Below, piece after piece: positions 3,001-40,599 of a stretch of DNA of 64,000 bases. The stretch's first letter is position 1. Each line of letters starts with the position of its first letter. The notes below the pieces were generated by a model. The model saw only the letters and a list, made by a program, of their open reading frames with translations, had not been told where the DNA came from and searched no databases. A program made the position numbers and the translations under genes. Origin of the DNA: Antedon mediterranea (lineage: Eukaryota > Animalia > Echinodermata); assembly GCF_964355755.1 (NCBI RefSeq), contig NC_092679.1, positions 9,268,201 through 9,332,200 of the forward strand, given 5' to 3'.

Positions 3001-5460
3001 CAAGTTTTTTCGAAAATCACAAAATGGTCTAAAACGTTTCCAAATGCGATTTGAAGCTTTTCTTTACACTTTGGTGTTTTTATGTTAACAAGTTTTTTCG
3101 AAAATCACAAAATGGTCTAAAACGTCTCCAAATGCGATTTGAAGCTATTCTGTACACTTTGATGTTTTTATGTTAACAAGTTTTTTCGAAGATCACAAAA
3201 TGGTCTAAAACGTCTACAAATGCAATTTGAAGCTATTCTAAGCACTTTTGTGTTTTTATGTTAACAAGTTTTTTCGAAAATCACAAAATGGTCTAAAACG
3301 TCTGCAAATGCGATTTTAAACTATTCTTAGCACATGGGTGTTTTTATTTAAACAAATTTTTTCGAAACTCACAAAATGGTCTAAAACGTCTCCAAATGCG
3401 ATTTGAAGCTATTTTAAGCACTTTGGTGTTTTTGTGTTAACAAGTTTTTCGAAATGCTCAAAATGGTCTAAAACGTTTTTAAACACGATATTAAGCTATT
3501 TTGTGCTCTTTGGTGTTTTTTTGTGAAAAGTTTTAGCAAAATGCTCAAAATGGTCTAAAACGATTTCTAATGTGATTTTAAGCACTTTGATGTTTTTATG
3601 TTAACTAGTTTTTTCGAAAATCACAAAATGGTCTAAAACGTTTCCAAATGCGATTTGAAGCTATTTTAAGCACTTAAGTGCTTTTGTGTAACCAAGTTTT
3701 TTTGAAAATCACAAAAGGGTCTAAAATGTCTCCAAATGTGATTTGAAGCTATTTTAAGCACTTTGGTGTTTTTGTGTTAACAAGTTTTTCGGAAATCACC
3801 AAATTGTCTAAAACGTCTCCAAATGCGATTTGAAGCTATTCTGTACACTTTGATGTTTTTATGTTAACAAGTTTTTTAGAAAATCACAAAATGGTCTAAA
3901 ACATCTCCAAATGCGATTTAAAGCTATTTTAAGCACTTTGGTGTTTTTATGTTAACAAGTTTTTTCGAAAATCACAAAATGGTCTAAAACGTCTCCAAAT
4001 GCGATTTGAAGCTATTTTAAGCACTTTGGTGTTTTTGTGTTAACAAGTTTTTCGAAATGCTCAAAATGGTCTAAAACGTTTCCAAATGCGATTTGAAGCT
4101 ATTCTGTACACTTTGATGTTTTGTGTGAAAATTTTCTGTCGAAATGCTCAAAATGGTCAAAAACGTTTTTAAATACGATATTAAGCTACTTTGTGCTCTT
4201 TGATGTTTTTGTGTGAAATGTTTTATCGAAATGCTCAAAATGGTCTAAAACGGTTTCTAATGTGATTTCAAGCACTTTGATGTTTTTGTGTAACCAAGTT
4301 TTTCGAAAATCACAAAATTGTCTAAAACGTCTCCAAATGCGATTTGAAGCTATTCTGTACTCTTTGATGTTTTTATGTTAACAAGTTTTTCGAAAATCAC
4401 AAAATGGTCTAAAACGTCTCCAAATGCGATTTTAAGCTATTCTAAGCACTTTGGTGTTTTTATGTTAACAAGTTTTTTTGAAATCACAAAATGGTCTAAA
4501 ACGTCTCTAAATGAGATTTGAAGCTTTTCTGTACATTTTGATGTTTTTATGTTAACAAGTTTTTTCGAAAATCACAAAATGGTCTAAAATGTCTCCAAAT
4601 GCGATTTGAAGCTATTCTAAGCACTTTGGTGTTTTTATGGAAACAATTTTTTTCGAAAATCACAAAATGGTCTAAAACGTCTCCAAATGTGATTTGAAGC
4701 TATTCTGTACACTTTGATGTTTTTATGTTAGCAAGTTTTTTCGAAAATCACAAAATGGTCTAAAACGTCTACAAATGCGATTTGAAGCTAATCTGTACAC
4801 TTTGATGTTTTTATGTTAACAAGTTTTTTCGAAAATCACAAAAGGGTCTAAAATGTCTGTAAATGCTATTTGAAGCTATTTAAAGCACTTTGGTGTTTTT
4901 AGGTTAACAAGTTTTTTCGAAAATCACAAAAGGGTCTAAAATGTCTGTAAATGCGATTTGAAGCTATTTAAAGCACTTTTGTGTTTTTATGTTAACAAGT
5001 TTTTTCGAAAATCACAAAATGGTCTAAAACGTCTCCAAATGCGATTTGAAGCTATTTTAAGCACTTTGGTGTTTTTGTGTTAACAAGTTTTTCGAAAATC
5101 ACAAAATGGTCTAAAACGTTTCCAAATGCGATTTGAAGCTATTCTGTACACTTTGATGTTTTGTGTGAAAATTTTCTTTCGAAATGCTCAAAATGGTCAA
5201 AAACGTTTTTAAATACGATATTAAGCTACTTTGTGCTCTTTGATGTTTTTGTGTGAAATGTTTTATCGAAATGCTCAAAATGGTCTAAAACGGTTTCTAA
5301 TGTGATTTCAAGCACTTTGATGTTTTTGTGTAACCAAGTTTTTCGAAAATCACAAAATTGTCTAAAACGTCTCCAAATGCGATTTGAAGCTATTCTGTAC
5401 ACTTTGATGTTTTTATGTTAACAAGTTTTTCGAAAATCACAAAATGGTCTAAAACGTCTC
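1..5460. repeat. ~1.75 copies of the 3,123-bp higher-order repeat
   Basis: Sequence from position 1 recurs at 3124 with the same order of variant monomers until about 5460. Confidence 0.88.
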
Positions 5461-8400
5461 CAAATGCGATTTGAAGCTATTCTGTACACTTTGATGTTTT
5501 TATGTTAACAAGTTTTTCGAAAATCACAAAATGGTCTAAAACGTCTCTAAATGCGATTTGAAGCTTTTCTGTACACTTTGATGTTTTTATGTTAACAACT
5601 TTTTTCGAAAATCACAAAATGGTCTAAAACGTCTACAAATGCGATTTGAAGCTATTCTAAGCACTTTTGTGTTTTTATGTTAACAAGTTTTTTCGAAAAT
5701 AACAAAATGGTCTAAAACGTCTGCAAATGCGATTTGAAGCTATTTTAAGCACTTTGGTGTTTTTGTGTTAACAAGTTTTTCGAAATGCTCAAAATGGTCT
5801 AAAACGTTTCCAAATGCGATTTGAAGCTATTCTGTACACTTTGATGTTTTGTGTGAAAATTTTCTGTCGAAATGCTCAAAATGGTCAAAAACGTTTTTAA
5901 ATACGATATTAAGCTACTTTGTGCTCTTTGATGTTTTTGTGTGAAATGTTTTATCGAAATGCTCAAAATGGTTTAAAACGGTTTCTAATGTGATTTCAAG
6001 CACTTTGATGTTTTTGTGTAACCAAGTTTTTCGAAAATCACAAAATTGTCTAAAACGTCTCCAAATGCGATTTGAAGCTATTCTGTACACTTTGGTGTTT
6101 TTATGTTAACAAGTTTTTTCGAAAATCACAAAATGGTCTAAAACGTCTCCAAATGCGATTTAAAGCTATTTTAAGCACTTTTGTGTTTTTGTGTTAACAA
6201 GTTTTTCGAAAATCACAAAATGGTCTAAAACGTTTCCAAATGCGATTTGAAGCTATTCTGTACACTTTGATGTTTTGTGTGAAAATTTTCTTTCGAAATG
6301 CTCAAAATGGTCAAAAAAGTTTTTAAATACGATATTAAGCTACTTTGTGCTCTTTGATGTTTTTGTGTGAAATGTTTTATCGAAATGCTCAAAATGGTCT
6401 AAAACGGTTTCTAATGTGATTTCAAGCACTTTGATGTTTTTGTGTAACCAAGTTTTTCGAAAATCACAAAATTGTCTAAAACGTCTCCAAATGCGATTTG
6501 AAGCTATTCTGTACACTTTGATGTTTTTATGTTAACAAGTTTTTCGAAAATCACAAAATGGTCTAAAACGTCTCCAAATGCGATTTGAAGCTATTCTGTA
6601 CACTTTGATGTTTTTATGTTAACAAGTTTTTCGAAAATCACAAAATGGTCTAAAACGTCTCTAAATGCGATTTGAAGCTTTTCTGTACACTTTGATGTTT
6701 TTATGTTAACAACTTTTTTCGAAAATCACAAAATGGTCTAAAATGTCTCCAAATGCGATTTGAAGCTATTCTAAGCACTTTGATGTTTTTATGTTACCAA
6801 GTTTTTTCGAAAATCACAAAATGGTCTAAAATGTCTCCAATAGCGATTTTAAGCTATTCTGTACACTTTGATGTTTTTATGTTAACAAGTTTTTCGAAAA
6901 TCACAAAATGGTCTAAAACGTCTCCAAATGCGATTTTAAGCTATTCTAAGCACTTTGGTGTTTTTATGTTAACAAGTTTTTTTGAAAATCACAAAATGGT
7001 CTAAAACGTCTCTAAATGCGATTTGAAGCTTTTCTGTACACTTTGATGTTTTTATGTTAACAACTTTTTTCGAAAATCACAAAATGGTCTAAAATGTCTC
7101 CAAATGCGATTTGAAGCTATTCTAAGCACTTTGGTGTTTTTATGGAAACAATTTTTTTCGAAAATCACAAAATGGTCTAAAACGTCTCCAATAGCGATTT
7201 GAAGCTTTTCTGTACACTTTGGTGTTTTTATGTTAACAAGTTTTTTCGAAAATCACAAAATGGTCTAAAACGTCTCCAAATGCGATTTGAAGCTAATCTG
7301 TACACTTTGATGTTTTTATGTTAACAAGTTTTTTCGAAGATCACAAAATGGTCTAAAACGTCTACAAATGCAATTTGAAGCTATTCTAAGCACTTTTGTG
7401 TTTTTATGTTAACAAGTTTTTTCGAAAATCACAAAATGGTCTAAAACGTCTGCAAATGCGATTTTAAACTATTCTTAGCACATTGGTGTTTTTATTTAAA
7501 CAAATTTTTTCGAAACTCACAAAATGGTCTAAAACGTCTCCAAATGCGATTTGAAGCTATTTTAAGCACTTTGGTGTTTTTGTGTTAACAAGTTTTTCGA
7601 AATGCTCAAAATGGTCTAAAACGTTTTTAAACACGATATTAAGCTATTTTGTGCTCTTTGGTGTTTTTTTGTGAAAAGTTTTAGCAAAATGCTCAAAATG
7701 GTCTAAAACGATTTCTAATGTGATTTTAAGCACTTTGATGTTTTTATGTTAACTAGTTTTTTCGAAAATCACAAAATGGTCTAAAACGTCTCCAAATGCG
7801 ATTTGAAGCTATTTTAAGCACTTAAGTGCTTTTGTGTAACCAAGTTTTTTTGAAAATCACAAAAGGGTCTAAAATGTCTCCAAATGTGATTTGAAGCTAT
7901 TTTAAGCACTTTGGTGTTTTTGTGTTAACAAGTTTTTCGGAAATCACAAAATTGTCTAAAACGTCTCCAAATGCGATTTGAAGCTATTCTGTACACTTTG
8001 ATGTTTTTATGTTACCAAGTTTTTTAGAAAATCACAAAATGGTCTAAAACATCTCCAAATGCGATTTAAAGCTATTTTAAGCACTTTGGTGTTTTTATGT
8101 TAACAAGTTTTTTCGAAAATCACAAAATGGTCTAAAACGTCTCCAAATGCGATTTGAAGCTTTTCTGTACACTTTGGTGTTTTTATGGAAACAATTTTTT
8201 TCGAAAATCACAAAATGGTCTAAAATGTCTCCAAATGCGATTTGAAGCTATTCTAAGCACTTTGATGTTTTTATGTTAACAAGTTTTTTCGAAAATCACA
8301 AAATGGTCTAAAACGTCTCCAATAGCGATTTTAAGCTATTCTGTACACTTTGATGTTTTTATGTTAACAACTTTTTTCGAAAATCACAAAATGGTCTAAA

Positions 8401-9519
8401 ATGTCTCCAAATGCGATTTGAAGCTATTCTAAGCACTTTGGTGTTTTTATGGAAACAATTTTTTTCGAAAATCACAAAATGGTCTAAAACGTCTCCAATA
8501 GCAATTTGAAGCTTTTCTTTACACTTTGGTGTTTTTATGTTAACAAGTTTTTTCGAAAATCACAAAATGATCTAAAACGTCTCCAAATGCGATTTGAAGC
8601 TATTCTGTACACTTTGATGTTTTTATGTTAACAAGTTTTTTCGAAAATCACAAAATGTTCTAAAACGTCTACAAATGCAATTTGAAGCTATTCTAAGCAC
8701 TTTTGTGTTTTTATGTTAACAAGTTTTTTCGAAAATCACAAAATGGTCTAAAACGTCTGCAAATGCGATTTGAAATTATTCTTAGCACATTGGTGTTTTT
8801 ATTTAAACAAATTTTTTCGAAACTCACAAAATGGTCTAAAACGTCTCCAAATGCGATTTGAAGCTATTTTAAGCACTTTGGTGTTTTTGTGTTAACAAGT
8901 TTTTCGAAATGCTCAAAATGGTCTAAAACGTTTTTAAACACGATATTAAGCTATTTTGTGCTCTTTGGTGTTTTTTTGTGAAAAGTTTTAGCAAAATGCT
9001 CAAAATGGTCTAAAACGATTTCTAATGTGATTTTAAGCACTTTGATGTTTTTATGTTAACTAGTTTTTTCGAAAATCACAAAATGGTCTAAAACGTCTCC
9101 AAATGCGATTTGAAGCTATTTTAAGCACTTAGGTGCTTTTGTGTAACCAAGTTTTTTTGAAAATCACAAAAGGGTCTAAAATGTCTCCAAATGTGATTTG
9201 AAGCTATTTTAAGCACTTTGGTGTTTTTGTGTTAACAAGTTTTTCGGAAATCACAAAATTGTCTAAAACGTCTCCAAATGCGATTTGAAGCTATTCTGTA
9301 CACTTTGATGTTTTTATGTTAACAAGTTTTTTAGAAAATCACAAAATGGTCTAAAACATCTCCAAATGCGATTTAAAGCTATTTTAAGCACTTTGGTGTT
9401 TTTATGTTAACAAGTTTTTTCGAAAATCACAAAATGGTCTAAAACGTCTCCAAATGCGATTTGAAGCTATTTTAAGCACTTGGGTGTTTTTGTGTTAACA
9501 AGTTTTTCGAAATGCTCAA

Positions 9520-9523
9520 AATG
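9520..9523. repeat. Target-site duplication AATG, left copy
   Basis: ctcaa-AATG-cacagctg; the uninterrupted paralog reads ctcaa-AATG-gtctaaa with AATG only once. Confidence 0.93.
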
Positions 9524-9536
9524 CACAGCTGTTTCA
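9524..9536 (+). repeat. Left terminal inverted repeat (13 bp, CACAGCTGTTTCA)
   Basis: Exact reverse complement of 14737-14749; begins exactly where the satellite is interrupted. Confidence 0.97.
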
Positions 9537-9548
9537 AACATACGAATT

Positions 9549-9565
9549 AAGTCATGCGCCCTCAA
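9549..9565 (+). repeat. Subterminal inverted motif, left (AAGTCATGCGCCCTCAA), putative transposase-binding site
   Basis: 16/17 match to the reverse complement of 14699-14715; 12 bp inside the left TIR. Confidence 0.85.
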
Positions 9566-9665
9566 CGTTACAAGTCGTATCGCTGGAGTAACAATACATA
9601 AACAATTACTTACAAATCCACGTGTGCAGAGTGGAGTCAAATGTCATTTAAAGACATGTTTTAAA

Positions 9666-9679
9666 CAGCCAATGAGAAT
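9666..9679 (+). promoter_or_regulatory. Possible CCAAT (NF-Y) box near the left end of the transposon
   Basis: CAGCCAATGAGAAT matches the extended CCAAT consensus, ~140 bp inside the left TIR; motif match only. Confidence 0.25.
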
Positions 9680-10119
9680 GAGATAAAAAAATAAAGGGTC
9701 GGTAAAAATATGAATATTCATTAAAGAGTCCCTGGATGAAACAAGCACGTTGTCGTTTTGTTTTTAACAAGGAATGTAACGCTGAAAATTAATGGAAGGG
9801 TGGACCATAAAATACAAGCATATACCAATTTACGCACGTGAGTGACATTTCCAAATTAGGTACATGTTTGTTTGTCCGTATCTTTAAAAAATCTAATTTT
9901 CACTCTAATTCTTTGGTACTGCATGATAATTTAGTTATCTGTGAATGTTATAACATAGTAATGGTCGAGAGGTGATGGTTGAATTTTTGAGCTATGGCCG
10001 TTTCAAATTGTGTCATTTTTAGGCTTAGGCTTGTGTCTACTCTAGTTGCAACACTGCCTTTCATGTGACAGCTGACCCAAATGAGTTTGGAAATGTTACA
10101 TTATTTGAATTATTTAGGC

Positions 10120-12733
10120 CTGGCTGGGTAGGCTAGGCATATACCAATACTATAGGCCCTATTTTTATTTTAATACTAGGCCTAGGCCCTTGCTAGACCT
10201 GTGTTCTCTAGCAGCCTACTACAGAGAAGCAGCTTTCCGGCTTAGTTAGCCTGGCCTTGAGTAGGCTAGCCTACTAGCCTAATACTAGTATTAGTAGGCT
10301 ACCTAATTAAAATTAGGCCCAGGATCTACGCCTAGGCCTATATATTTTTAATATTATTTAATCATTATAATTAATTTTAGTTTTATTAAATTTACAGTAT
10401 TCATTACAAAAACTGTAAATTTAATATTATGAGGATTATATATACCCTATGTAACATGTATGCAATAGGGAATATTATAGGCCTACCCTGTAAAGTGTAT
10501 GTAATAATTACAATATAAATAATGACAAGCATCATATTAACATTCGGTTTTGCTCATCACTGCATATTCAAATTAGTATGCAATCATACTAAATTTAATA
10601 AGTTAAGTTAATTTTATAAAATTGTTATAATAATTATTAATGTTATACTATTGTAGATACATATAATATATAGAGCAGTAACCTGAAGTGGCTAAGCAGA
10701 TTTGGACCATACCTACCATCTATATAGGTAAGATTATTTTGCTGTTCAAGAAGTAGCAAATATTAAATTGTGTACCATGCTATTAATTTGTAATATTAAC
10801 AATCAATCACTACCACTGGCTGGGTAGGCTAGGCCTATATTATAGGCCCTATTTTTATTTTAATATACTAGATAGACCTGTGCTCTCTATCACTAGCAGC
10901 AGCCTACAGAGAAGCAGCTTTCCAGCTTATTTAGCCTAGCCTAGAGCAATTAGGCTAGGTATAAGTAGGCTACCTAATTAGGCTAGGCTCTACGCCTATA
11001 TAGGCCTATTATTATTTAATTATTATTAATTTTTGTTTAATATATTTACAGTATTTATTTAAATAATGTTTATTATGAGAATACCTGGTTATATATACCC
11101 TATGCAATGACATAAGGCATATATGCCTACCCTGTATGTAATAATTACAATTATTAAAAATAATGAATTTTAACATTCGTTTTTGCTCATCACTGCATAT
11201 TCAAATTAGTATGTATGCAACCATATTAAATTTAATAAGCTAATTTTAAGTAATTCTTATAATAATGTTTTACTATTTTTTAGGTACATAGCGGCAACCC
11301 GAAGTGGCAAAAACATTTTAAACAGATTTGGACCAATACCTAGCAGCCTACCATCTATATACAGTAGGTAAGTTTATTTTACTGCTCAAGAACTAGTAAA
11401 TTTTAAATTGTGTTTACCATGCTATTAATTTTCAATATTAACAATAAATCACTACCACTGGCTGGGTAGGCTAGGCCTATATTATAGGCCCCATTTTTAT
11501 TTTAATATACTAGCTAGACCTGTGCTCTCTAACACTAGCAGCCTACAGAGAAGCAGCTTTCCAGCTTATTTAGCCTAGCCTAGAGCAATAGGCTAGGTAT
11601 AAGTAGACTACCTAATTAGGTCTAGGCTCTACGCCTAAATATTATTATTTAATTATTATTATTTTTAGTTTTAATATATTTACTGTATTTTATTTAAATA
11701 ATGTTTATTATGAGAATACCTGGTTATATATACCCTATGCAATGACATAAGGCATATATGCCTACCCTGTATGTAATAATTACAATTACAGTATTATAAA
11801 TAATGAATTTAAACATTCGTTTTTGCTTATCACTGCATATTCAAATTAGTATGTATGCAACCATATTAAATTTAATAAGCTAATTTTAATTAATTCTTAT
11901 AGTAATGTTTTACTATTTTTTAGGTACATAGCGGCAACCGGAAGTGGAAAAATCATTTAAACAGATTTGGACCTATACCTATACCTACCATCTATATTAT
12001 AGGTAAGTTTATTTTACTGTTCAAGAACTAGTAAATTTTAAATTGTGTTTACCATGCTATTAATTTTCAATATTAACAACCAATCACTACCACTGGCTGG
12101 GTAGGCTAGGCCTATATTATAGGCCCTATTTTTATTTTAATATACTAGCTAGACCTGTGCTCTCTTGCACTAGTAGCTTACAGAGAAGCAGCTTTCCAGC
12201 TTATTTAGCCTAGCCTAGAGCAATAGGCTAGGTATTAGTAGGCTACCTAATTAGGCATAGAGGCTCTATGCCTATATATTATTATTATTTAATTATTATT
12301 AATTTTTATTTTTAATATATTTACAGTATTTATTACAAATAATGTTTATTATGAGGATACCTGGTTATATATACCCTATGCAATGACATAAGGCATATAT
12401 GCCTACCCTGTATGTAATAATTACAATTATTATAAATAATGAATTTTAACATTTGTTTTTGCTCATCACTGCATATTCAAATTAGTATGTATGCAACCAT
12501 AGTAAATTTAATAAGTTAATTTTAATTAATTCTTATTATAATGTTATACTATTACTATTTTTTAGGTACATATATAGCGGCAACCCAAAATGGCTAAAAC
12601 ATTTTAAACAGATTTGGACCAATACCTATACCTACCATATAGGTAAGTTTATTTTACTGTTCAAGAACTAGTAAATTTTAAATTGTGTTTACCATGCTAT
12701 GAATTTGTAACTTTAACAATCAATCACTAACAC
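10120..12733. repeat. Internal tandem repeat of the transposon: 4 copies of a ~635-696 bp AT-rich unit
   Basis: Anchor CTGGCTGGGTAGGCTAGG at 10120, 10816, 11458 and 12093; shared blocks ACAGAGAAGCAGCTTTCC, CACTGCATATTCAAATTAGTATG and CAGATTTGGACC in every unit; copy 1 is the most diverged. Confidence 0.95.
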
Positions 12734-12914
12734 ATGTACAGCAGTAGTACTATCAATCAATAGTAATTAGTTAGTAATTGAAATATAGACATACTATAGT
12801 ATTACTTTTACATATTCATTATTATTAGGCATTGTTAAAAGGAAATCAATACAATGCAATATTCCTTTAACATTTAAAAATGTACAATATTTTATGATCA
12901 TTAATGTTAATGAA

Positions 12915-13190
12915 TCATTCTTTGTTGGCTTTCTTGCATTTGTTGGGTTTTATTATTTCATTTTGTATCATTGGAGATGTGAAAGTCAGATGAGTCTAAG
13001 TTTGACTCTAATCCACACTGCTGTTTTGTGACGGTTGAGTTTGGCATGTCTCCCCGCCTTGCTCAGAGACCACCTTCCATTCTCTCATGAATGCAATAGC
13101 ATGGTGCTCAAGCATATGTAGCTTAGGCTGTATTACACCTGGTGCAATATGCCTGTATTCTGCTAAAAATACTTGTATGATATTTTTTAT
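12915..13190 (-). pseudogene. Decayed transposase C-terminal region (H-x4-H zinc ligands and catalytic Glu motif; Chapaev/Transib/RAG1-like)
   Basis: Manual translation: IKNIIQVFLAEYRHIAPGVIQPKLHMLEHHAIAFMREWKVVSEQGGE, then after a frameshift HAKLNRHK. It parallels the RAG1 core end (YFHKTLAH...SEGNES, catalytic E). Short deletions before SEQ and after GGE plus downstream stops indicate inactivation. Confidence 0.8.
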
Positions 13191-13559
13191 GTAATTAAAA
13201 AATACTTAATTGACACATTAATACATTTTATAATTTCAGAAATTTTGTGATGAAAAAGTCAATCTGTGGTGACTGTAGAATGGACCCGAGATCGGACTAT
13301 CTTAGACATTTAAATAATAGAAAGTTCTGACAATTTTGTTGAATAGAAATATACAATGTATGATGTAGTCTTAATTGAAAATTGGCGCTTTTTAAACTAT
13401 GTATATAAATTAGGATGAGAAAACAGTTATTTGATTATGAGGTATGTTCATTTAATTAAATTTGTTAGTATAAACTTTCAAAAAGAGTGAAGATATAAGA
13501 AAAGCAGATTATGGAGCAGCTGTACCAGACAAAAAACTGTTCCCTTAAACGCCAGTGTG

Positions 13560-13864
13560 TTCTTTCACTTGTGAATGTAGTTTTGGCCCAGGTCATAATT
13601 GTTGTTGAAGTGTAGCATGCCAAGCAATTTGGTCCATGCCCTGTTAATTTAAATGTTAGCGTGGTAGTATACAGTATCCATTGAAAATTCGCGAATGGCA
13701 GGTTGTATAAATGTATATAGGTTGTAATTTTACATTTGTTAGATTTAGTGCAAATTTGTGATGGTTTTCATATTTTTTAAATTGTATTTTTTATCTTTTT
13801 CTTTAAATTTTGTTCCACAACAGAAGCAAGTAGAACTTAAAGCCTTTTCGTGAAACTGTGTTGC
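13560..13864 (-). pseudogene. Decayed transposase N-terminal Cys/His zinc domain (Chapa / RAG1 N-terminal-like)
   Basis: After a splice-acceptor-like TTTTCATTTTTGTAG: ATQFHEKALSSTCFCCGTKFKEKDKKYNLK; after a frameshift KPSQICTKS...TFKLTGHGPNCLAC. The motif order H-x7-CxxCG / P-x3-Cxx(C) / H-x3-CxxC matches the RAG1 N-terminal region (HQANLRHLCRICG / HPTEFCHNC / WHPHTPSCDIC, recalled from memory). Confidence 0.75.
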
Positions 13865-14399
13865 CTACAAAAATGAAAAGAAATTTTAATTTTACCAACC
13901 TTTAATTTTATATTATATTTATCATACAGTAGTTTGAGTATTTTTGTATAGGCTTTAATTTTGAAGGGCCTAGCTAGGCCTGGCCTGGTAGTTAGTAGTT
14001 TTACTAAATTTGTACATGTATGATGAATTATATTCAGTTGAAATAAATACAATGATAATAATTAAGCTTATTATTTAATCTATTGTAAATTAAAATGATG
14101 TATAGCATGATTACACTACTTATACGTACCAACTAGGCCTAGCTACAACCTAGGCCTAGTTGCGTACAGCCTAGCGAGCGGTTATCAGCCGCGTTCATCG
14201 ACCTCTCGCCAAATACGCTGTTTCGCATTTAACAAAACAGTCGAGTTTTTAAATGAAAATTTCTTGAGATTTTCACCGTCACCTCCTAACAATTCAATGT
14301 CTCATGTAAGCATATATAATCAAACTTTTACCTAGATTTTCCAAGTATTTATGAAAATTACGAATAAAAACAAAAAGTGTACAATTTGACAAGCATTTT

Positions 14400-14700
14400 T
14401 TCAAACTTTCCATTGTTTACATTTGCTAGGCCGATCGATGTTAATTTTTAAAACTTCCGGGTGTAAATAATTTCGTAAACTTGGTGTTATGCTTAATTAC
14501 TTACTATTTCCAAAAAATCGGTAATTAAAAATCTTATTTTCTAACAAATAGTATAAAAATGGTTTTATAATATTTATGACGAAATTGATTAAATTAATTT
14601 AAAGTGTAGTTATAAAAGTTGCAAATGTCGCGAAAGTTGAACGAGATTCAACCACTCGCGCGGCGTCACGCTCAGGCACATATCGCCGTCTGACAATATT
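14400..14700 (-). promoter_or_regulatory. Possible transposase promoter region
   Basis: Locally CpG-rich segment (~14625-14710) and an ETS-like CCGGAAGT on the minus strand (~14453-14460), upstream of the minus-strand transposase remnants; inference only. Confidence 0.25.
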
Positions 14701-14715
14701 GAGGGCGCTTGACTT
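14699..14715 (-). repeat. Subterminal inverted motif, right (revcomp AAGTCAAGCGCCCTCAA), putative transposase-binding site
   Basis: TTGAGGGCGCTTGACTT on the + strand; 21 bp inside the right TIR. Confidence 0.85.
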
Positions 14716-14736
14716 TTTCTATTTATTTTACATTGG

Positions 14737-14749
14737 TGAAACAGCTGTG
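14737..14749 (-). repeat. Right terminal inverted repeat (13 bp, TGAAACAGCTGTG)
   Basis: Exact reverse complement of 9524-9536; satellite resumes immediately after. Confidence 0.97.
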
Positions 14750-14753
14750 AATG
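14750..14753. repeat. Target-site duplication AATG, right copy
   Basis: cagctgtg-AATG-gtctaaa; offsets to the paralogous block change from 44,600 to 39,370, a difference of 5,230 = 5,226 + 4. Confidence 0.93.
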
Positions 14754-17700
14754 GTCTAAAACGTTTCCAAATGCGATTTGAAGCTATTCTGTACACTTTG
14801 ATGTTTTGTGTGAAAATTTTCTGTCGAAATGCTCAAAATGGTCAAAAACGTTTTTAAAAACGATATTAAGCTACTTTGTGCTCTTTGATGTTTTTGTGTG
14901 AAATGTTTTATCGAAATGCTCAAAATGGTCTAAAACGGTTTCTAATGTGATTTCAAGCACTTTGATGTTTTTGTGTAACCAAGTTTTTCGAAAATCACAA
15001 AATTGTCTAAAACGTCTCCAAATGCGATTTGAAGCTATTCTGTACTCTTTGATGTTTTTATGTTAACAAGTTTTTCGAAAATCACAAAATGGTCTAAAAC
15101 GTCTCCAAATGCGATTTTAAGCTATTCTAAGCACTTTGGTGTTTTTATGTTAACAAGTTTTTTTGAAATCACAAAATGGTCTAAAATGTCTCTAAATGAG
15201 ATTTGAAGCTTTTCTGTACATTTTGATGTTTTTATGTTAACAAGTTTTTTCGAAAATCACAAAATGGTCTAAAATGTCTCCAAATGCGATTTGAAGCTAT
15301 TCTAAGCACTTTGGTGTTTTTATGGAAACAATTTTTTTCGAAAATCACAAAATGGTCTAAAACGTCTCCAAATGTGATTTGAAGCTATTCTGTACACTTT
15401 GATGTTTTTATGTTAGCAAGTTTTTTCGAAAATTACAAAATTGTCTAAAACGTCTACAAATGCGATTTGAAGCTAATCTGTACACTTTGATGTTTTTATG
15501 TTAACAAGTTTTTTCGAAAATCACAAAAGGGTCTAAAATGTCTCCAAATGCGATTTGAAGCTATTCTAAGCACTTTGATGTTTTTATGTTACCAAGTTTT
15601 TTCGAAAATCACAAAATGGTCTAAAACGTCTCCAATAGCGATTTTAAGCTATTCTGTACACTTTGATGTTTTTATGTTAACAAGTTTTTCGAAAATCACA
15701 AAATGGTCTAAAACGTCTCCAAATGCGATTTTAAGCTATTCTAAGCACTTTGGTGTTTTTATGTTAACAAGTTTTTTTGAAAATCACAAAATGGTCTAAA
15801 ACGTCTCTAAATGCGATTTGAAGCTTTTCTGTACAATTTGATGTTTTTATGTTAACAACTTTTTTCGAAAATCACAAAATGGTCTAAAATGTCTCCAAAT
15901 GCGATTTGAAGCTATTCTAAGCACTTTGGTGTTTTTATGGAAACAATTTTTTTCGAAAATCACAAAATGGTCTAAAACGTCTCCAATAGCGATTTGAAGC
16001 TTTTCTGTACACTTTGGTGTTTTTATGTTAACAAGTTTTTTCGAAAATCACAAAATGGTCTAAAACGTCTCCAAATGCGATTTGAAGCTAATCTGTACAC
16101 TTTGATGTTTTTATGTTAACAAGTTTTTTCGAAGATCACAAAATGGTCTAAAACGTCTACAAATGCAATTTGAAGCTATTCTAAGCACTTTTGTGTTTTT
16201 ATGTTAACAAGTTTTTTCGAAAATCACAAAATGGTCTAAAACGTCTGCAAATGCGATTTTAAACTATTCTTAGCACATTGGTGTTTTTATTTAAACAAAT
16301 TTTTTCGAAACTCACAAAATGGTCTAAAACGTCTCCAAATGCGATTTGAAGCTATTTTAAGCACTTTGGTGTTTTTGTGTTAACAAGTTTTTCGAAATGC
16401 TCAAAATGGTCTAAAACGTTTTTAAACACGATATTAAGCTATTTTGTGCTCTTTGGTGTTTTTTTGTGAAAAGTTTTAGCAAAATGCTCAAAATGGTCTA
16501 AAACGATTTCTAATGTGATTTTAAGCACTTTGATGTTTTTATGTTAACTAGTTTTTTCGAAAATCACAAAATGGTCTAAAACGTCTCCAAATGCGATTTG
16601 AAGCTATTTTAAGCACTTAAGTGCTTTTGTGTAACCAAGTTTTTTTTAAAATCACAAAAGGGTCTAAAATGTCTCCAAATGTGATTTGAAGCTATTTTAA
16701 GCACTTTGGTGTTTTTGTGTTAACAAGTTTTTCGGAAATCACAAAATTGTCTAAAACGTCTCCAAATGCGATTTGAAGCTATTCTGTACACTTTGATGTT
16801 TTTATGTTAACAAGTTTTTTAGAAAATCACAAAATGGTCTAAAACATCTCCAAATGCGATTTAAAGCTATTTTAAGCACTTTGGTGTTTTTATGTTAACA
16901 AGTTTTTTCGAAAATCACAAAATGGTCTAAAACGTCTCCAAATGCGATTTGAAGCTATTTTAAGCACTTTGGTGTTTTTGTGTTAACAAGTTTTTCGAAA
17001 TGCTCAAAATGGTCTAAAACGTTTCCAAATGCGATTTGAAGCTATTCTGTACACTTTGATGTTTTGTGTGAAAATTTTCTGTCGAAATGCTCAAAATGGT
17101 CAAAAACGTTTTTAAATACGATATTAAGCTACTTTGTGCTCTTTGATGTTTTTGTGTGAAATGTTTTATCGAAATGCTCAAAATGGTCTAAAACGGTTTC
17201 TAATGTGATTTCAAGCACTTTGATGTTTTTGTGTAACCAAGTTTTTCGAAAATCACAAAATTGTCTAAAACGTCTCCAAATGCGATTTGAAGCTATTCTG
17301 TACTCTTTGATGTTTTTATGTTAACAAGTTTTTCGAAAATCACAAAATGGTCTAAAACGTCTCCAAATGCGATTTTAAGCTATTCTAAGCACTTTGGTGT
17401 TTTTATGTTAACAAGTTTTTTTGAAATCACAAAATGGTCTAAAACGTCTCTAAATGAGATTTGAAGCTTTTCTGTACATTTTGATGTTTTTATGTTAACA
17501 AGTTTTTTCGAAAATCACAAAATGGTCTAAAATGTCTCCAAATGCGATTTGAAGCTATTCTATACACTTTGATGTTTTTATGTTAGCAAGTTTTTTCGAA
17601 AATCACAAAATGGTCTAAAACGTCTACAAATGCGATTTGAAGCTAATCTGTACACTTTGATGTTTTTATGTTAACAAGTTTTTTCGAAAATCACAAAAGG

Positions 17701-20700
17701 GTCTAAAATGTCTGTAAATGCGATTTGAAGCTATTTAAAGCACTTTGGTGTTTTTAGGTTAACAAGTTTTTTCGAAAATCACAAAAGGGTCTAAAATGTC
17801 TGTAAATGCGATTTGAAGCTATTTAAAGCACTTTGGTGTTTTTAGGTTAACAAGTTTTTTCGAAAATCACAAAATGGTCTAAAACGTCTACAAATGCGAT
17901 TTGAAGCTATTCTAAGCACTTTTGTGTTTTTATGTTAACAAGTTTTTTCGAAAATCACAAAATGGTCTAAAATGTCTCCAAATGCGATTTGAAGCTATTC
18001 TAAGCACTTTGGTGTTTTTATGGAAACAATTTTTTTCGAAAATCACAAAATGGTCTAAAACGTCTCCAAATGTGATTTGAAGCTATTCTGTACACTTTGA
18101 TGTTTTTATGTTAGCAAGTTTTTTCGAAAATCACAAAATGGTCTAAAACGTCTACAAATGCGATTTGTAGCTAATCTGTACACTTTGATGTTTTTATGTT
18201 AACAAGTTTTTTCGAAAATCACAAAAGGGTCTAAAATGTCTGTAAATGCGATTTGAAGCTATTTAAAGCACTTTGGTGTTTTTAGATTAACAAGTTTTTT
18301 CGAAAATCACAAAATGGTCTAAAACGTCTACAAATGCGATTTGAAGCTATTCTAAGCACTTTTGTGTTTTTATGTTAACAAGTTTTTTCGAAAATCACAA
18401 AATGGTCTAAAACGTCTCCAAATGCGATTTGAAGCTATTTTAAGCACTTTGGTGTTTTTGTGTTAACAAGTTTTTCGAAAATCACAAAATGGTCTAAAAC
18501 GTTTCCAAATGCGATTTGAAGCTATTCTGTACACTTTGATGTTTTGTGTGAAAATTTTCTTTCGAAATGCTCAAAATGGTCAAAAACGTTTTTAAATACG
18601 ATATTAAGCTACTTTGTGCTCTTTGATGTTTTTGTGTGAAATGTTTTATCGAAATGCTCAAAATGGTCTAAAACGGTTTCTAATGTGATTTCAAGCACTT
18701 TGATGTTTTTGTGTAACCAAGTTTTTCGAAAATCACAAAATTGTCTAAAACGTCTCCAAATGCGATTTGAAGCTATTCTGTACACTTTGATGTTTTTATG
18801 TTAACAAGTTTTTCGAAAATCACAAAATGGTCTAAAACGTCTCCAAATGCGATTTGAAGCTATTCTGTACACTTTGATGTTTTTATGTTAACAAGTTTTT
18901 CGAAAATCACAAAATGGTCTAAAACGTCTCTAAATGCGATTTGAAGCTTTTCTGTACACTTTAATGTTTTTATGTTAACTTTTTTCGAAAATCACAAAAT
19001 GGTCTAAATTTTCTCCAAATGCGATTTGAAGCTATTCTAAGCACTTTGATGTTTTTATGTTAACAAGTTTTTTCGAAAATCACAAAATGGTCTAAAACGT
19101 CTCCAATAGCGATTTTAAGCTATTCTGTACACTTTGATGTTTTTATGTTAACAAGTTTTTCGAAAATCACAAAATGGTCTAAAATGCGATTTTAAGCTAT
19201 TCTAAGCACTTTGGTGTTTTTATGTTAACAAGTTTTTTTGAAAATCACAAAATGGTCTAAAACGTCTCTAAATGCGATTTGAAGCTTTTCTGTACACTTT
19301 GATGTTTTTATGTTAACAACTTTTTTCGAAAATCACAAAATGGTCTAAAATGTCTCCAAATGCGATTTGAAGCTATTCTAAGCACTTTGGTGTTTTTATG
19401 GAAACAATTTTTTTCGAAAATCACAAAATGGTCTAAAACGTCTCCAATAGCGATTTGAAGCTTTTCTGTACACTTTGGTGTTTTTATGTTAACAAGTTTT
19501 TTCGAAAATCACAAAATGGTCTAAAACGTCTCCAAATGCGATTTGAAGCTAATCTGTACACTTTGATGTTTTTATGTTAACAAGTTTTTTCGAAAATCAC
19601 AAAATGGTCTAAAACGTTTCAAAATGCGATTTGAAGCTTTTCTTTACACTTTGGTGTTTTTATGTTAACAAGTTTTTTCGAAAATCACAAAATGGTCTAA
19701 AACGTCTCCAAATGCGATTTGAAGCTATTCTGTACACTTTGATGTTTTTATGTTAACAAGTTTTTTCGAAGATCACAAAATTGTCTAAAACGTCTACAAA
19801 TGCAATTTGAAGCTATTCTAAACACTTTTGTGTTTTTATGTTAACAAGTTTTTTTCGAAAATCACAAAATGGTCTAAAACGTCTGCAAATGCGATTTTAA
19901 ACTATTCTTAGCACATTGGTGTTTTTATTTAAACAAATTTTTTCGAAACTCACAAAATGGTCTAAAACGTCTCCAAATGCGATTTGAAGCTATTTTAAGC
20001 ACTTTGGTGTTTTTGTGTTAACAAGTTTTTCGAAATGCTCAAAATGGTCTAAAACGTTTTTAAACACGATATTAAGCTATTTTGTGCTCTTTGATGTTTT
20101 TTTGTGAAAAGTTTTAGCAAAATGCTCAAAATGGTCTAAAACGATTTCTAATGTGATTTTAAGCACTTTGATGTTTTTATGTTAACTAGTTTTTTCGAAA
20201 ATCACAAAATGGTCTAAAACGTCTCCAAATGCGATTTGAAGCTATTTTAAGCACTTAGGTGCTTTTGTGTAACCAAGTTTTTTTGAAAATCACAAAAGGG
20301 TCTAAAATGTCTCCAAATGTGATTTGAAGCTATTTTAAGCAGTTTGGTGTTTTTGTGTTAACAAGTTTTTCGAAAATCACAAAATTGTCTAAAACGTCTC
20401 CAAATGCGATTTGAAGCTATTCTGTACACTTTGATGTTTTTATGTTAACAAGTTTTTTAGAAAATCACAAAATGGTCTAAAACATCTCCAAATGCGATTT
20501 AAAGCTATTTTAAGCACTTTGGTGTTTTTATGTTAACAAGTTTTTTCGAAAATCACAAAATGGTCTAAAACGTCTCCAAATGCGATTTGAAGCTATTTTA
20601 AGCACTTTGGTGTTTTTGTGTTAACAAGTTTTTCGAAATGCTCAAAATGGTCTAAAACGTTTCCAAATGCGATTTGAAGCTATTCTGTACACTTTGATGT

Positions 20701-23700
20701 TTTGTGTGAAAATTTTCTGTCGAAATGCTCAAAATGGTCAAAAACGTTTTTAAATACGATATTAAGCTACTTTGTGCTCTTTGATGTTTTTGTGTGAAAT
20801 GTTTTATCGAAATGCTCAAAATGGTCTAAAACGGTTTCTAATGTGATTTCAAGCACTTTGATGTTTTTGTGTAACCAAGTTTTTCGAAAATCACAAAATT
20901 GTCTAAAACGTCTCCAAATGCGATTTGAAGCTATTCTGTACTCTTTGATTTTTTTATTTTAACAAGTTTTTCGAAAATCACAAAATGGTCTAAAACGTCT
21001 CCAAATGCGATTTTAAGCTATTCTAAGCACTTTGGTGTTTTTATGTTAACAAGTTTTTTTGAAAATCACAAAATGGTCTAAAACGTCTCTAAATGAGATT
21101 TGAAGCTTTTCTGTACACTTTGATGTTTTTATGTTAACAAGTTTTTTCGAAAATCACAAAATGGTCTAAAATGTCTCCAAATGCGATTTGAAGCTATTCT
21201 AAGCACTTTGGTGTTTTTATGGAAACAATTTTTTTCGAAAATCACAAAATGGTCTAAAACGTCTCCAAATGTGATTTGAAGCTATTCTGTACACTTTGAT
21301 GTTTTTATGTTAACAAGTTTTTTCGAAAATCACAAAATGGTCTAAAACGTCTACAAATGCGATTTGAAGCTATACTGTACACTTTGATGCTTTTATGTTA
21401 ACAAGTTTTTTCGAAAATCACAAAATGGTCTAAAACGTTTCCAAATGCGATTTGAAGCTATTCTGTACACTTTGATGTTTTGTGTGAAAATTTTCTGTCG
21501 AAATGCTCAAAATGGTCAAAAACGTTTTTAAATACGATATTAAGCTACTTTGTGCTCTTTGATGTTTTTGTGTGAAATGTTTTATCGAAATGCTCAAAAT
21601 GGTCTAAAACGGTTTCTAATGTGATTTCAAGCACTTTGATGTTTTTGTGTAACCAAGTTTTTCGAAAATCACAAAATTGTCTAAAACGTCTCCAAATGCG
21701 ATTTGAAGCTATTCTGTACACTTTGATGTTTTTATGTTAACAAGTTTTTCGAAAATCACAAAATGGTCTAAAACGTCTCCAAATGCGATTTGAAGCTATT
21801 CTGTAAACTTTGATGTTTTTATGTTAACAAGTTTTTCGAAAATCACAAAATGGTCTAAAACGTCTCTAAATGCGATTTGAAGCTTTTCTGTACACTTTGA
21901 TGTTTTTATGTTAACAACTTTTTTCGAAAATCACAAAATGGTCTAAAATGTCTCCAAATGCGATTTGAAGCTATTCTAAGCACTTTGGTGTTTTTATGTT
22001 AACAAGTTTTTTCGAAAATCACAAAATGGTCTAAAACGTCTCCAAATGCGATTTGAAGCTATTCTGTACACTTTGATGTTTTTATGTTAACAAGTTTTTT
22101 CGAAAATCACAAAATGGTCTAAAACGTCTACAAATGCGATTTGAAGCTATTCTGTACACTTTGATGTTTTTATGTTAACAAGTTTTTTCGAAAATCACAA
22201 AATGGTCTAAAACGTTTCCAAATGCGATTTGAAGCTATTCTGTACACTTTGATGTTTTGTGTGAAAATTTTCTTTCGAAATGCTCAAAATGGTCAAAAAC
22301 GTTTTTAAATACGATATTAAGCTACTTTGTGCTCTTTGATGTTTTTGTGTGAAATGTTTTATCGAAATGCTCAAAATGGTGTAAAACGGTTTCTAATGTG
22401 ATTTCAAGCACTTTGATGTTTTTGTGTAACCAAGTTTTTCGAAAATCACAAAATTGTCTAAAACGTCTCCAAATGCGATTTGAAGCTATTCTGTACACTT
22501 TGATGTTTTTATGTTAACAAGTTTTTTCGAAGATCACAAAATGGTCTAAAACGTCTACAAATGCAATTTGAAGCTATTCTAAGCACTTTTGTGTTTTTAT
22601 GTTAACAAGTTTTTTCGAAAATCACAAAATGGTCTAAAACGTCTGCAAATGCGATTTTAAACTATTCTTAGCACATGGGTGTTTTTATTTAAACAAATTT
22701 TTTCGAAACTCACAAAATTGTCTAAAACGTCTCCAAATGCGATTTGAAGCTATTTTAAGCACTTTGGTGTTTTTGTGTTAACAAGTTTTTCGAAATGCTC
22801 AAAATGGTCTAAAACGTTTTTAAACACGATATTAAGCTATTTTGTGCTCTTTGGTGTTTTTTTGTGAAAAGTTTTAGCAAAATGCTCAAAATGGTCTAAA
22901 ACGATTTCTAATGTGATTTTAAGCACTTTGATGTTTTTATGTTAACTAGTTTTTTCGAAAATCACAAAATGGTCTAAAACGTCTCCAAATGCGATTTGAA
23001 GCTATTTTAAGCACTTAAGTGCTTTTGTGTAACCAAGTTTTTTTGAAAATCACAAAAGGGTCTAAAATGTCTCCAAATGTGATTTGAAGCTATTTTAAGC
23101 ACTTTGGTGTTTTTGTGTTAACAAGTTTTTCGGAAATCACCAAATTGTCTAAAACGTCTCCAAATGCGATTTGAAGCTATTCTGTACACTTTGATGTTTT
23201 TATGTTAACAAGTTTTTTAGAAAATCACAAAATGGTCTAAAACATCTCCAAATGCGATTTAAAGCTATTTTAAGCACTTTGGTGTTTTTATGTTAACAAG
23301 TTTTTTCGAAAATCACAAAATGGTCTAAAACGTCTCCAAATGCGATTTGAAGCTATTTTAAGCACTTTGGTGTTTTTGTGTTAACAAGTTTTTCGAAATG
23401 CTCAAAATGGTCTAAAACGTTTCCAAATGCGATTTGAAGCTATTCTGTACACTTTGATGTTTTGTGTGAAAATTTTCTGTCGAAATGCTCAAAATGGTCA
23501 AAAACGTTTTTAAATACGATATTAAGCTACTTTGTGCTCTTTGATGTTTTTGTGTGAAATGTTTAATCGAAATGCTCAAAATGGTCTAAAACGGTTTCTA
23601 ATGTGATTTCAAGCACTTTGATGTTTTTGTGTAACCAAGTTTTTCGAAAATCACAAAATTGTCTAAAACGTCTCCAAATGCGATTTGAAGCTATTCTGTA

Positions 23701-29500: not shown

Positions 29501-31520
29501 TCTCCAAATGCGATTTAAAGCTATTTTAAGCACTTTGGTGTTTTTATGTTAACAAGTTTTTTCGAAAATCACAAAATGGTCTAAAACGTCTCCAATTGCG
29601 ATTTGAAGCTATTTTAAGCACTTTGGTGTTTTTGTGTTAACAAGTTTTTCGAAATGCTCAAAATGGTCTAAAACGTTTCCAAATGCGATTTGAAGCTATT
29701 CGGTACACTTTGATGTTTTGTGTGAAAATTTTCTGTCGAAATGCTCAAAATGGTCAAAAACGTTTTTAAATACGATATTAAGCTACTTTGTGCTCTTTGA
29801 TGTTTTTGTGTGAAATGTTTTATCGAAATGCTCAAAATGGTCTAAAACGGTTTCTAATGTGATTTCAAGCACTTTGATGTTTTTGTGTAACCAAGTTTTT
29901 CGAAAATCACAAAATTGTCTAAAACGTCTCCAAATGCGATTTGAAGCTATTCTGTACTCTTTGATTTTTTTATTTTAACAAGTTTTTCGAAAATCACAAA
30001 ATGGTCTAAAACGTCTCCAAATGCGATTTTAAGCTATTCTAAGCACTTTGGTGTTTTTATGTTAACAAGTTTTTTTGAAAATCACAAAATGGTCTAAAAC
30101 GTCTCTAAATGAGATTTGAAGCTTTTCTGTACACTTTGATGTTTTTATGTTAACAAGTTTTTTCGAAAATCACAAAATGGTCTAAAATGTCTCCAAATGC
30201 GATTTGAAGCTATTCTAAGCACTTTGGTGTTTTTATGGAAACAATTTTTTTCGAAAATCACAAAATGGTCTAAAACGTCTCCAAATGTGATTTGAAGCTA
30301 TTCTGTACACTTTGATGTTTTTATGTTAACAAGTTTTTTCGAAAATCACAAAATGGTCTAAAACGTCTACAAATGCGATTTGAAGCTATACTGTACACTT
30401 TGATGCTTTTATGTTAACAAGTTTTTTCGAAAATCACAAAATGGTCTAAAACGTTTCCAAATGCGATTTGAAGCTATTCTGTACACTTTGATGTTTTGTG
30501 TGAAAATTTTCTGTCGAAATGCTCAAAATGGTCAAAAACGTTTTTAAATACGATATTAAGCTACTTTGTGCTCTTTGATGTTTTTGTGTGAAATGTTTTA
30601 TCGAAATGCTCAAAATGGTCTAAAACGGTTTCTAATGTGATTTCAAGCACTTTGATGTTTTTGTGTAACCAAGTTTTTCGAAAATCACAAAATGGTCTAA
30701 AACGTCTCCAAATGCGATTTGAAGCTATTCTGTACACTTTGATGTTTTTATGTTAACAAGTTTTTCGAAAATCACAAAATGGTCTAAAACGTCTCCAAAT
30801 GCGATTTGAAGCTATTCTGTACACTTTGATGTTTTTATGTTAACAAGTTTTTCGAAAATCACAAAATGGTCTAAAACGTCTCTAAATGCGATTTGAAGCT
30901 TTTCTGTACACTTTGATGTTTTTATGTTAACAACTTTTTTCGAAAATCACAAAATGGTCTAAAATGTCTCCAAATGCGATTTGAAGCTATTCTAAGCACT
31001 TTGGTGTTTTTATGTTAACAAGTTTTTTCGAAAATCACAAAATGGTCTAAAACGTCTCCAAATGCGATTTGAAGCTATTCTGTACACTTTGATGTTTTTA
31101 TGTTAACAAGTTTTTTCGAAAATCACAAAATGGTCTAAAACGTCTACAAATGCGATTTGAAGCTATTCTGTACACTTTGATGTTTTTATGTTAACAAGTT
31201 TTTTCGAAAATCACAAAATGGTCTAAAACGTTTCCAAATGCGATTTGAAGCTATTCTGTACACTTTGATGTTTTGTGTGAAAATTTTCTTTCGAAATGCT
31301 CAAAATGGTCAAAAACGTTTTTAAATACGATATTAAGCTACTTTGTGCTCTTTGATGTTTTTGTGTGAAATGTTTTATCGAAATGCTCAAAATGGTCTAA
31401 AACGGTTTCTAATGTGATTTCAAGCACTTTGATGTTTTTGTGTAACCAAGTTTTTCGAAAATCACAAAATTGTCTAAAACGTCTCCAAATGCGATTTGAA
31501 GCTATTCTGTACACTTTGAT
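26600..31520. repeat. Block duplication of ~17600-22500 (offset ~9.0 kb)
   Basis: Shared rare variants: TTAATG...GTTAACTTTTT...CTAAATTTTCTCC at 18961/27967 (offset 9,006) and CTCTTTGATTTTTTTATTTT at 20941/29957 (offset 9,016). Boundaries approximate. Confidence 0.8.
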
Positions 31521-40500: not shown

Positions 40501-40599
40501 ATTGTCTAAAACGTCTCCAAATGCGATTTGAAGCTATTCTGTACACTTTGATGTTTTTATGTTAACAAGTTTTTCGAAAATCACAAAATGGTCTAAAAC

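What the first reader, a model, noticed from the sequence alone, without database searches (positions are those of the whole stretch)
9524..14749. Transposon ends have an asymmetric, RSS-like bipartite design: TIR + 12 bp or 21 bp spacer + conserved 17-mer
Seen: both ends begin CACAGCTGTTTCA, then an unconserved spacer, then AAGTCA(T/A)GCGCCCTCAA. The spacer is 12 bp at the left end and 21 bp at the right, a difference of 9 bp, close to one helical turn. The first 5 nt (CACAG) equal those of the V(D)J heptamer CACAGTG. Established: RSSs (12/23 rule) and ProtoRAG ends use terminal motif + unequal spacer + internal motif, and RAG/Transib make 5-bp TSDs. Inference: a 4-bp-TSD Chapaev-type element may use asymmetric end pairing analogous to the 12/23 rule. 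I am not aware of this being described for Chapaev but cannot check the literature. The 17-mer does not resemble the RSS nonamer.
Basis: partly seen in the sequence, partly recalled or inferred. Interest (0 to 1): 0.85.

Follow-up and report, generated by a model that had tools for sequence, protein, structure and literature searches.

The report
Chapaev-like transposon with one-turn-offset ends
This gene-less jumping-DNA element carries the same short signal about 25 bases in from one end and 35 bases in from the other, and other copies and diverged relatives keep that one-helix-turn offset, so its still-unfound enzyme, likely of the Chapaev kind, is predicted to pair a short end with a long end, as the antibody-gene recombinase RAG does.

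Summary
A 5,226-bp non-autonomous DNA transposon (9524-14749) sits in an 88-bp satellite with an exact 4-bp target duplication; the rebuilt empty site matches 120/120 at three other places. Each end is a 13-14-bp inverted repeat, a spacer and a 17-mer.

The asymmetry is not a private indel. Contigs from public runs keep the left terminus-to-motif distance at 25 bp. On the right, 9 of 10 readable contigs give 35 bp (one gives 38, none 25); this copy has 34. Diverged relatives changed about half their spacer letters but not the length. The family offset is therefore 10 bp, and 12/21 is this copy's variant of 12/22.

No transposase was found, so 'Chapaev' rests on CAC termini and the 4-bp duplication. 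An obligatory short-plus-long pairing rule is inferred, not shown.

One-turn asymmetry is published for Transib, RAGL and P elements; my searches found no report for Chapaev. The scan noted a similar Chapaev case in another genome (e1-9549352, unchecked). New variant of a known kind; interest 0.5.

The parts
9520..9523 (+). Left target-site duplication (AATG)
9524..9536 (+). Left terminal inverted repeat, 13 bp (14 bp with 9537 when compared with the 22-bp form of the right end)
   Evidence: boundary confirmed by different flanks joining exactly at 9524 in runs X1 and X9
9537..9548 (+). Left (short) spacer, 12 bp; terminus-to-motif distance 25
   Evidence: same length in the X9 contig and in a diverged X1 family
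9549..9565 (+). Left inner 17-mer, predicted transposase-binding site
   Evidence: binding is inferred
9566..10119 (+). Left unique subterminal region, non-coding, with a CCAAT-box-like site at 9667
10120..12733 (+). Four tandem units of 696, 642, 635 and 641 bp. All four hold a donor-like site and units 2-4 an acceptor-like site in register on the + strand; no ORF in common
12734..14698 (.). Right unique region, non-coding, CpG-richer near the end
14699..14715 (-). Right inner 17-mer (16/17 identical to the left one)
14716..14736 (-). Right (long) spacer: 21 bp here, 22 bp in 9 of 10 readable contigs from other copies and a diverged family
14737..14749 (-). Right terminal inverted repeat, 13 bp
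   Evidence: different flanks follow it in X1, X2 and X6
14750..14753 (+). Right target-site duplication (AATG)
1..64000 (+). Host 88-bp satellite array into which the element inserted

Best explanation
This is a multi-copy, non-autonomous cut-and-paste transposon with a 4-bp duplication and two-part ends offset by one helical turn, likely moved in trans by a Chapaev-type (CMC) transposase that is predicted to grip the terminal repeat and the inner 17-mer together and to prefer one short plus one long end. Shown: the ends, the 4-bp TSD, other insertion sites, conserved distances of 25 and 35 (34 here), and no coding capacity. Inferred: the catalytic core cuts at the CAC tip while a separate DNA-binding domain holds the 17-mer. 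Inferred: a 10-bp step keeps the motif on the same face of the helix, and a flexibly linked domain takes up the length difference in an asymmetric paired complex, as described for the RAG nonamer-binding domain and the P-element THAP domain.
For: Ends and TSD. Other insertion sites: two different left flanks at 9524 (X1, X9) and different right flanks (X1, X2, X6). Left distance 25 in the X9 contig (no change listed before 9592) and in a diverged X1 family whose 12-bp spacer differs at 5 letters by eye. Right distance 35 in 9 of 10 readable contigs (X1 3, X2 2, X6 4). One of them is a diverged X2 family that differs at 8 of the 16 readable spacer letters by eye yet has the same length. Rough chance of no indel at that divergence: 0.085 and 0.025 at assumed indel:substitution ratios of 0.1 and 0.15; far lower at the 0.59 measured between this element's internal repeats. 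Precedents, read as passages or sections: RAG nonamer-binding domain pivots to take up the asymmetry (PMC10462144); P element 9/21 spacing and THAP flexibility (PMC7776569); spacer length matters for ProtoRAG (PMC8289069); piggyBat needs unlike ends (PMC11707139). Chapaev hallmarks are a 3-4-bp TSD and CAC..GTG termini (PMC4079192).
Against: No transposase in the element (0 of 44 stop-to-stop frames hit a transposase family), and none could be linked to these ends. The TSD length is shown at one locus only; no left and right flank of a second locus could be paired. Left and right ends of the diverged families were read separately and are not shown to belong to one element. Each end has only one diverged family. 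One low-depth X2 contig has distance 38, and this copy has 34, so some slack exists. Organism B (X6) shows no cover at 9536-9556, and its main left contig starts at 9573 behind other letters; unresolved. By eye, Chapaev3 Merrow ends in a published figure are offset by 9-10 bases in two hosts but 0-1 in two others (PMC4079192 Fig. S6), which hints that asymmetry can be dispensable. Invertebrate RAGL enzymes are proposed to be fairly insensitive to TIR asymmetry (PMC7204232).
Confidence: 0.5

Rival explanations
1. Phase rule only: the transposase needs the 17-mer on the right face of the helix, so 12 or 22 both work at either end. The asymmetry is inherited, not required.
For: The offset is one turn. 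Merrow Chapaev3 ends seem to switch between offsets of 0-1 and 9-10 among hosts (by eye, 34 bases per end). Subgroup II Transibs have both symmetric and asymmetric TIRs (PMC9435367).
Against: No like-ended form was seen: 0 of 10 readable right ends had the short distance, and no long left end was listed. The diverged families keep short on the left and long on the right.
Confidence: 0.25
2. The mover is a Transib or RAGL-type transposase that makes a 4-bp instead of a 5-bp duplication. The ends would then be an ordinary case of the published Transib/RAGL asymmetry. This concerns family identity and is compatible with either pairing model.
For: TSD length is labile within Transib (2, 3 and 5 bp; bioRxiv 10.64898/2026.08.26.747230, passages). 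TransibSU-1_PM starts with the same six letters. The AanRAGL inner 10-mer resembles the tail of the 17-mer plus the next four bases (9/10 at the right end, 8/10 at the left, by eye).
Against: The TSD is 4 bp, whereas RAGL and canonical Transib make 5 bp. Positions 8-10 read GTT, not the A-run of RAGL TIRs. The inner motif is GC-rich, not an A-rich nonamer. The AanRAGL likeness was noticed after the fact and lies 19-20 bases further in.
Confidence: 0.15
3. The 17-mer is a host-protein site (a promoter or chromatin factor) kept near both ends, not a transposase site.
For: Both subterminal regions are CpG-richer than the interior, with promoter-like and splice-like signals. The GC core loosely recalls half of the CTCF motif (recalled, not tested).
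Against: The motif occurs exactly once per end, in inverted orientation, at a fixed distance from the cut site. Host promoter sites would not need that.
Confidence: 0.1
4. The asymmetry is a chance indel in an originally continuous 40-50-bp inverted repeat and has no function.
For: Both spacers are A-rich and can be aligned with gaps. Only one diverged family per end was read.
Against: The lengths are kept across runs of three organism labels and across families with about half the spacer letters changed, while indels are common elsewhere in the element (table 4 of both calls).
Confidence: 0.07

Closest known systems
Chapaev transposons (CMC/CMCT clade; PMC4079192 passages and supplement parts 1-2 of 3; PMC4411706, PMC12730594 and PMC3014272 passages)
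   Same: CAC..GTG termini, short TIR, 4-bp TSD, animal-like host DNA, non-autonomous derivatives
   Different: No transposase here to test membership. No two-part, one-turn-offset end was described for Chapaev in the texts I saw. Not Chapaev3, which makes a 3-bp TWA duplication.
Asymmetric Transibs: Transib5, Transib2_AG, TransibN1-3_AG (PMC1131882 passages); Subgroup I Transibs (PMC9435367 whole text)
   Same: CAC-type tip, unequal spacers about one turn apart, inner motif
   Different: 5-bp GC-rich TSD and A-rich nonamer there; 4-bp TSD and GC-rich 17-mer here
RAGL transposons: AanRAGL (13 bp + 4/13 + 10-mer), PflRAGL-A (10-bp offset), ProtoRAG (27/31) (PMC9435367, PMC10462144, PMC8289069)
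   Same: Two-part ends with unequal spacers; AanRAGL has a 13-bp terminal block and a 9-bp offset
   Different: 5-bp TSD and RAG1L/RAG2L genes, with an A-rich block after the heptamer in most RAGL TIRs; none of these here
V(D)J recombination signal sequences (12/23 rule)
   Same: First five letters; short and long spacer one turn apart, with 1-bp tolerance
   Different: Heptamer matches 5 of 7; no nonamer; inner motif starts at position 26/36 rather than 20/31; no pairing rule shown
Drosophila P element (PMC7776569 passages) and piggyBac/piggyBat (PMC11707139 passages)
   Same: Inner transposase site at unequal distances from the two tips (P: 9/21); unlike ends needed together (piggyBat)
   Different: Unrelated superfamilies (8-bp TSD for P; TTAA for piggyBac, recalled). 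They show that the design has arisen more than once.

Membership tests
Chapaev (4-bp TSD group) | 5'-CAC...GTG-3' termini | tested here: met
   definition in PMC4079192
Chapaev (4-bp TSD group) | 3-4-bp TSD | tested here: met
   4 bp by empty-site match; one locus only
Chapaev (4-bp TSD group) | DDE transposase with C(2)C, LH and H(4)H motifs and a Chapa domain | tested here: inconclusive
   No transposase in this copy; autonomous partner not found (no genome held)
Chapaev (4-bp TSD group) | Sequence match to a Repbase/Dfam Chapaev family | not testable with these tools
Chapaev3 | 3-bp TWA TSD | tested here: not met
   TSD is AATG; definition
Transib | 5-bp GC-rich TSD | tested here: not met
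   against PMC1131882; the feature is reported as labile
Transib | Heptamer + spacer + A-rich nonamer | tested here: not met
   Inner motif is GC-rich
RAGL transposons | RAG1L and RAG2L genes | tested here: not met
   No Pfam hit of this kind in 44 of 44 frames; a non-autonomous copy could lack them
RAGL transposons | A-run at TIR positions 8-10 and 5-bp TSD | tested here: not met
   Positions 8-10 read GTT; TSD 4 bp; definition in PMC7204232
12/23-type pairing rule | Unequal spacers about one turn apart, conserved in length but not in sequence | tested here: met
12/23-type pairing rule | Unlike ends required for coupled cleavage | not testable with these tools
   Needs biochemistry with the cognate transposase

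The most novel reading that the evidence does not exclude
Chapaev transposases obey their own 12/22 one-turn pairing rule, read through a GC-rich 17-mer in place of the nonamer. Asymmetric end pairing would then predate the split of Chapaev from Transib/RAG, and the 12/23 rule would be an old trait of the whole clade rather than a late RAG or RAG2 invention.
Probability: 0.25. Interest if true: 0.78.

Novelty: new variant of a known kind. Interest (0 to 1): 0.5.

Why it matters
When the 12/23 rule arose is debated. One view ties it to particular Transibs (PMC8355894), others to RAGL-A (PMC10462144) or to ancestral Subgroup I Transibs (PMC9435367). Chapaev shares the RAG1 N-terminal Chapa and RING domains and is the more distant relative (PMC4411706). 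A conserved one-turn offset in a 4-bp-TSD, CAC-ended family gives an outgroup test. The family looks young (family contigs identical or nearly identical to this copy) and has tens of copies by rough depth ratio, so an intact transposase may exist in the same genome, which would make the test feasible. The P element shows that such spacing can also arise independently.

Tried and rejected
1. Whole genome: none held, so no full copy census or second TSD.
2. Coding remnants: only 3 stop-to-stop frames of 80 aa or more. 44 of 44 frames of 35 aa or more gave no transposase family; 5 had noise hits at E 0.03-0.21, all below cut-off.
3. Rfam: one sub-threshold AT-rich hit, rejected.
None showed a paired inverted end or the element's sequence; taken as chance.
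5. Sequencing runs: no RNA holder listed. Five of 15 listed runs were laid: X1, X6 and X9 on both ends, X15 on the left only, X2 on the right only. X15 gave nothing, X9 no element cover on the right, X6 no cover at 9536-9556; holes prove nothing.
6. X9 shares several substitutions with X6 that X1 lacks, so it may not be independent of organism B.
7. A 5-bp TSD was considered and rejected.
8. The AanRAGL 10-mer likeness was considered and left as probably chance; the supplement search found the motif core 0 times and the first 8 TIR letters once, inside other sequence.
9. The bacterial promoter scan was irrelevant. PMC8355894 gave context only; bioRxiv 2021.09.26.461848 gave nothing useful.
10. 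Earlier-findings look-ups by sequence and place were blank.
Full report
OBSERVATION. The whole 64-kb window is an 88-bp satellite, interrupted at 9524-14749 by a 5,226-bp insert. Both ends begin with the same 13 bases, the only 2 matches in the window. A 17-mer follows at 9549-9565 and 14699-14715, the only 2 matches with up to 3 mismatches, against 0.17 expected. Spacers are 12 and 21 bp. The ends agree 16/17 only at offset +9, and 0 of 1000 shuffles reach that score. The insert is flanked by AATG on both sides. The empty site rebuilt with one copy matches 120/120 at three other places, and the A-run there is four A in 555 of 555 matches, so the duplication is exactly 4 bp.

INTERIOR. There is no transposase. 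Only 3 stop-to-stop frames reach 80 aa, and none of 44 frames of 35 aa or more hits a transposase family in Pfam. About half the element is four tandem units of 635-696 bp, with donor-like sites in all four and acceptor-like sites in three. Rfam gave one sub-threshold hit. The element is non-autonomous.

OTHER COPIES. No genome is held. A search of public runs listed 15 holders under four coded organism labels plus three unlabelled runs. I laid five, all contigs: X1, X6 and X9 on both ends, X15 on the left, X2 on the right.

LEFT END (12 of 15 loose-end rows, 12 of 13 indel rows and 19 of 413 records shown). Different flanks join exactly at 9524 in X1 and X9, so the boundary is real and the family has inserted elsewhere. 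No indel is listed between 9524 and 9565. A 606-nt X9 contig covers 9524-10099 with no change listed before 9592. A diverged X1 family aligns at 9553-9621 with 12 differences and no gap; its end has the same 29-base distance from the CAC tip to 9553, although 5 of the 12 spacer letters differ (by eye). Against: X6 has no cover at 9536-9556, and its main contig starts at 9573 behind letters that resemble the internal repeat. X15 gave nothing.

RIGHT END (18 of 26 loose-end rows and 32 of 3,285 records shown). Ten contigs could be read from motif to tip. Nine have distance 35, that is a 22-bp spacer: two X1 contigs with one added T, one X1 contig with a decayed tip, one X2 contig identical to the window over 14500-14737, four X6 contigs, and one diverged X2 family. 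The diverged family aligns only over 14687-14720, keeps the terminal repeat, and differs at 8 of 16 readable spacer letters (by eye) with no length change. One low-depth X2 contig has distance 38 through a 3-base duplication in the TIR. None has the short distance. In X1 most of the summed depth shows no added base (1,440 of 20,125 with it), so the 21-bp form of the window is probably common in that sample; this cannot be counted exactly. In the 22-bp form the inverted repeat is 14 bp and the distances are 25 and 35, an offset of exactly 10. X9 had no element cover here. No left and right flank could be paired, so the TSD is shown at one locus only.

IS LENGTH SELECTED? A rough calculation gives a chance of no indel in the two diverged spacers of 0.085 or 0.025 at assumed indel:substitution ratios of 0.1 or 0.15. 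It is far lower at the ratio of 0.59 measured between the element's own tandem units, which are rich in simple sequence and may overstate the rate. This is moderate evidence from two comparisons. Contigs with unique flanks have depth 147-156 in X1 against 5,700-8,500 for family contigs, which suggests tens of copies; the tool warns that depth is not a copy number.

MECHANISM. Shown: two-part ends, conserved distances, mobility, 4-bp TSD. Inferred: a transposase supplied in trans cuts at the CAC tip and binds the 17-mer with a second domain. One turn of B-DNA (about 10.5 bp, recalled) keeps the motif on the same face, and a flexible linker would let one complex hold a short and a long end. This is how the RAG nonamer-binding domain enforces 12/23 (PMC10462144, passages) and how P-element ends with 9/21 spacing are thought to pair (PMC7776569, passages). 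Spacer length matters for ProtoRAG (PMC8289069, abstract and section 8), and piggyBat needs unlike ends (PMC11707139, passages). The main rival is a phase rule without obligatory asymmetry. By eye, the Chapaev3 Merrow ends printed in Fig. S6 of PMC4079192 are offset by 9-10 bases in two hosts and 0-1 in two others (only about 34 bases per end; the passages I saw do not remark on it). Invertebrate RAGL enzymes are proposed to be insensitive to asymmetry (PMC7204232, passages).

IDENTITY. CAC..GTG termini and a 3-4-bp TSD are the stated hallmarks of Chapaev; Chapaev3 makes 3-bp TWA duplications (PMC4079192; PMC3014272). The element fails the Transib and RAGL tests of a 5-bp TSD, an A-rich nonamer and an A-run at positions 8-10. 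TSD length is labile within Transib, however (bioRxiv 10.64898/2026.08.26.747230, passages), so without a transposase the filing is 'Chapaev-like'. The heptamer likeness is 5 of 7 letters, and CA termini are common to the CMCT clade (PMC12730594, passages).

WHAT IS KNOWN. Asymmetric two-part ends are published for Transib5 and four mosquito Transib families (PMC1131882, passages), for all Subgroup I Transibs and AanRAGL with 4/13 spacers (PMC9435367, whole text), for PflRAGL-A and for the P element. I found no description for Chapaev. The search for Chapaev + asymmetric + TIRs returned 0 papers, and searches listed none on this point. The library lacks most subscription papers and the Repbase Reports, and it matches words literally (one search missed PMC4079192), so absence from print is not established. 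An earlier AI report of this scan describes a Chapaev element with unequal, conserved ends in another genome (e1-9549352); I could not check it and do not count it as support. Another report put a similar asymmetry in a Transib copy down to damage (e1-9039655); that alternative was tested here and failed.

VERDICT. This is a real, young, multi-copy non-autonomous transposon with a conserved one-turn offset between its ends. The architecture is a known kind; its occurrence in a 4-bp-TSD, Chapaev-like family with a GC-rich inner motif appears undescribed. Function and family remain inferred. New variant of a known kind; interest 0.5.

Noticed in passing
window 10120-12733: The four internal tandem units carry donor-like sites (near 10727, 11367, 12002, 12642), and units 2-4 carry acceptor-like sites (11284, 11924, 12566) in register on the + strand, with a further donor near 13440 and AATAAA at 14042. 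This looks like a spliced non-coding transcript built by exon duplication.
   Followed up: partly
window 9573 (run X6): In organism B the main left contig begins at 9573 behind 28 letters that resemble the internal repeat. That family may have a rearranged or internally duplicated left part.
   Followed up: no
window 9553-9621 and 14687-14720: Organism A holds diverged related families with the same end design but different interiors. Several more show as loose ends at 9572, 9680, 14687 and 14721.
   Followed up: partly
window 1-64000: The 88-bp satellite has higher-order structure: the 120-bp stretch around the insertion site recurs identically at 34717, 37679 and 54068. The satellite is also present in runs X1, X2, X6 and X9.
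   Followed up: no
window 14695-14704 (- strand) and 9560-9569: The tail of the 17-mer plus the next four bases matches the published AanRAGL inner 10-mer at 9/10 (right) and 8/10 (left) by eye, but lies 19-20 bases further from the tip; probably chance.
   Followed up: partly
PMC4079192 Fig. S6: Chapaev3 Merrow 5' ends are 9-10 bases longer than 3' ends up to a shared short motif in two hosts and about equal in two others. Garfield shows about 4. By eye only.
   Followed up: partly
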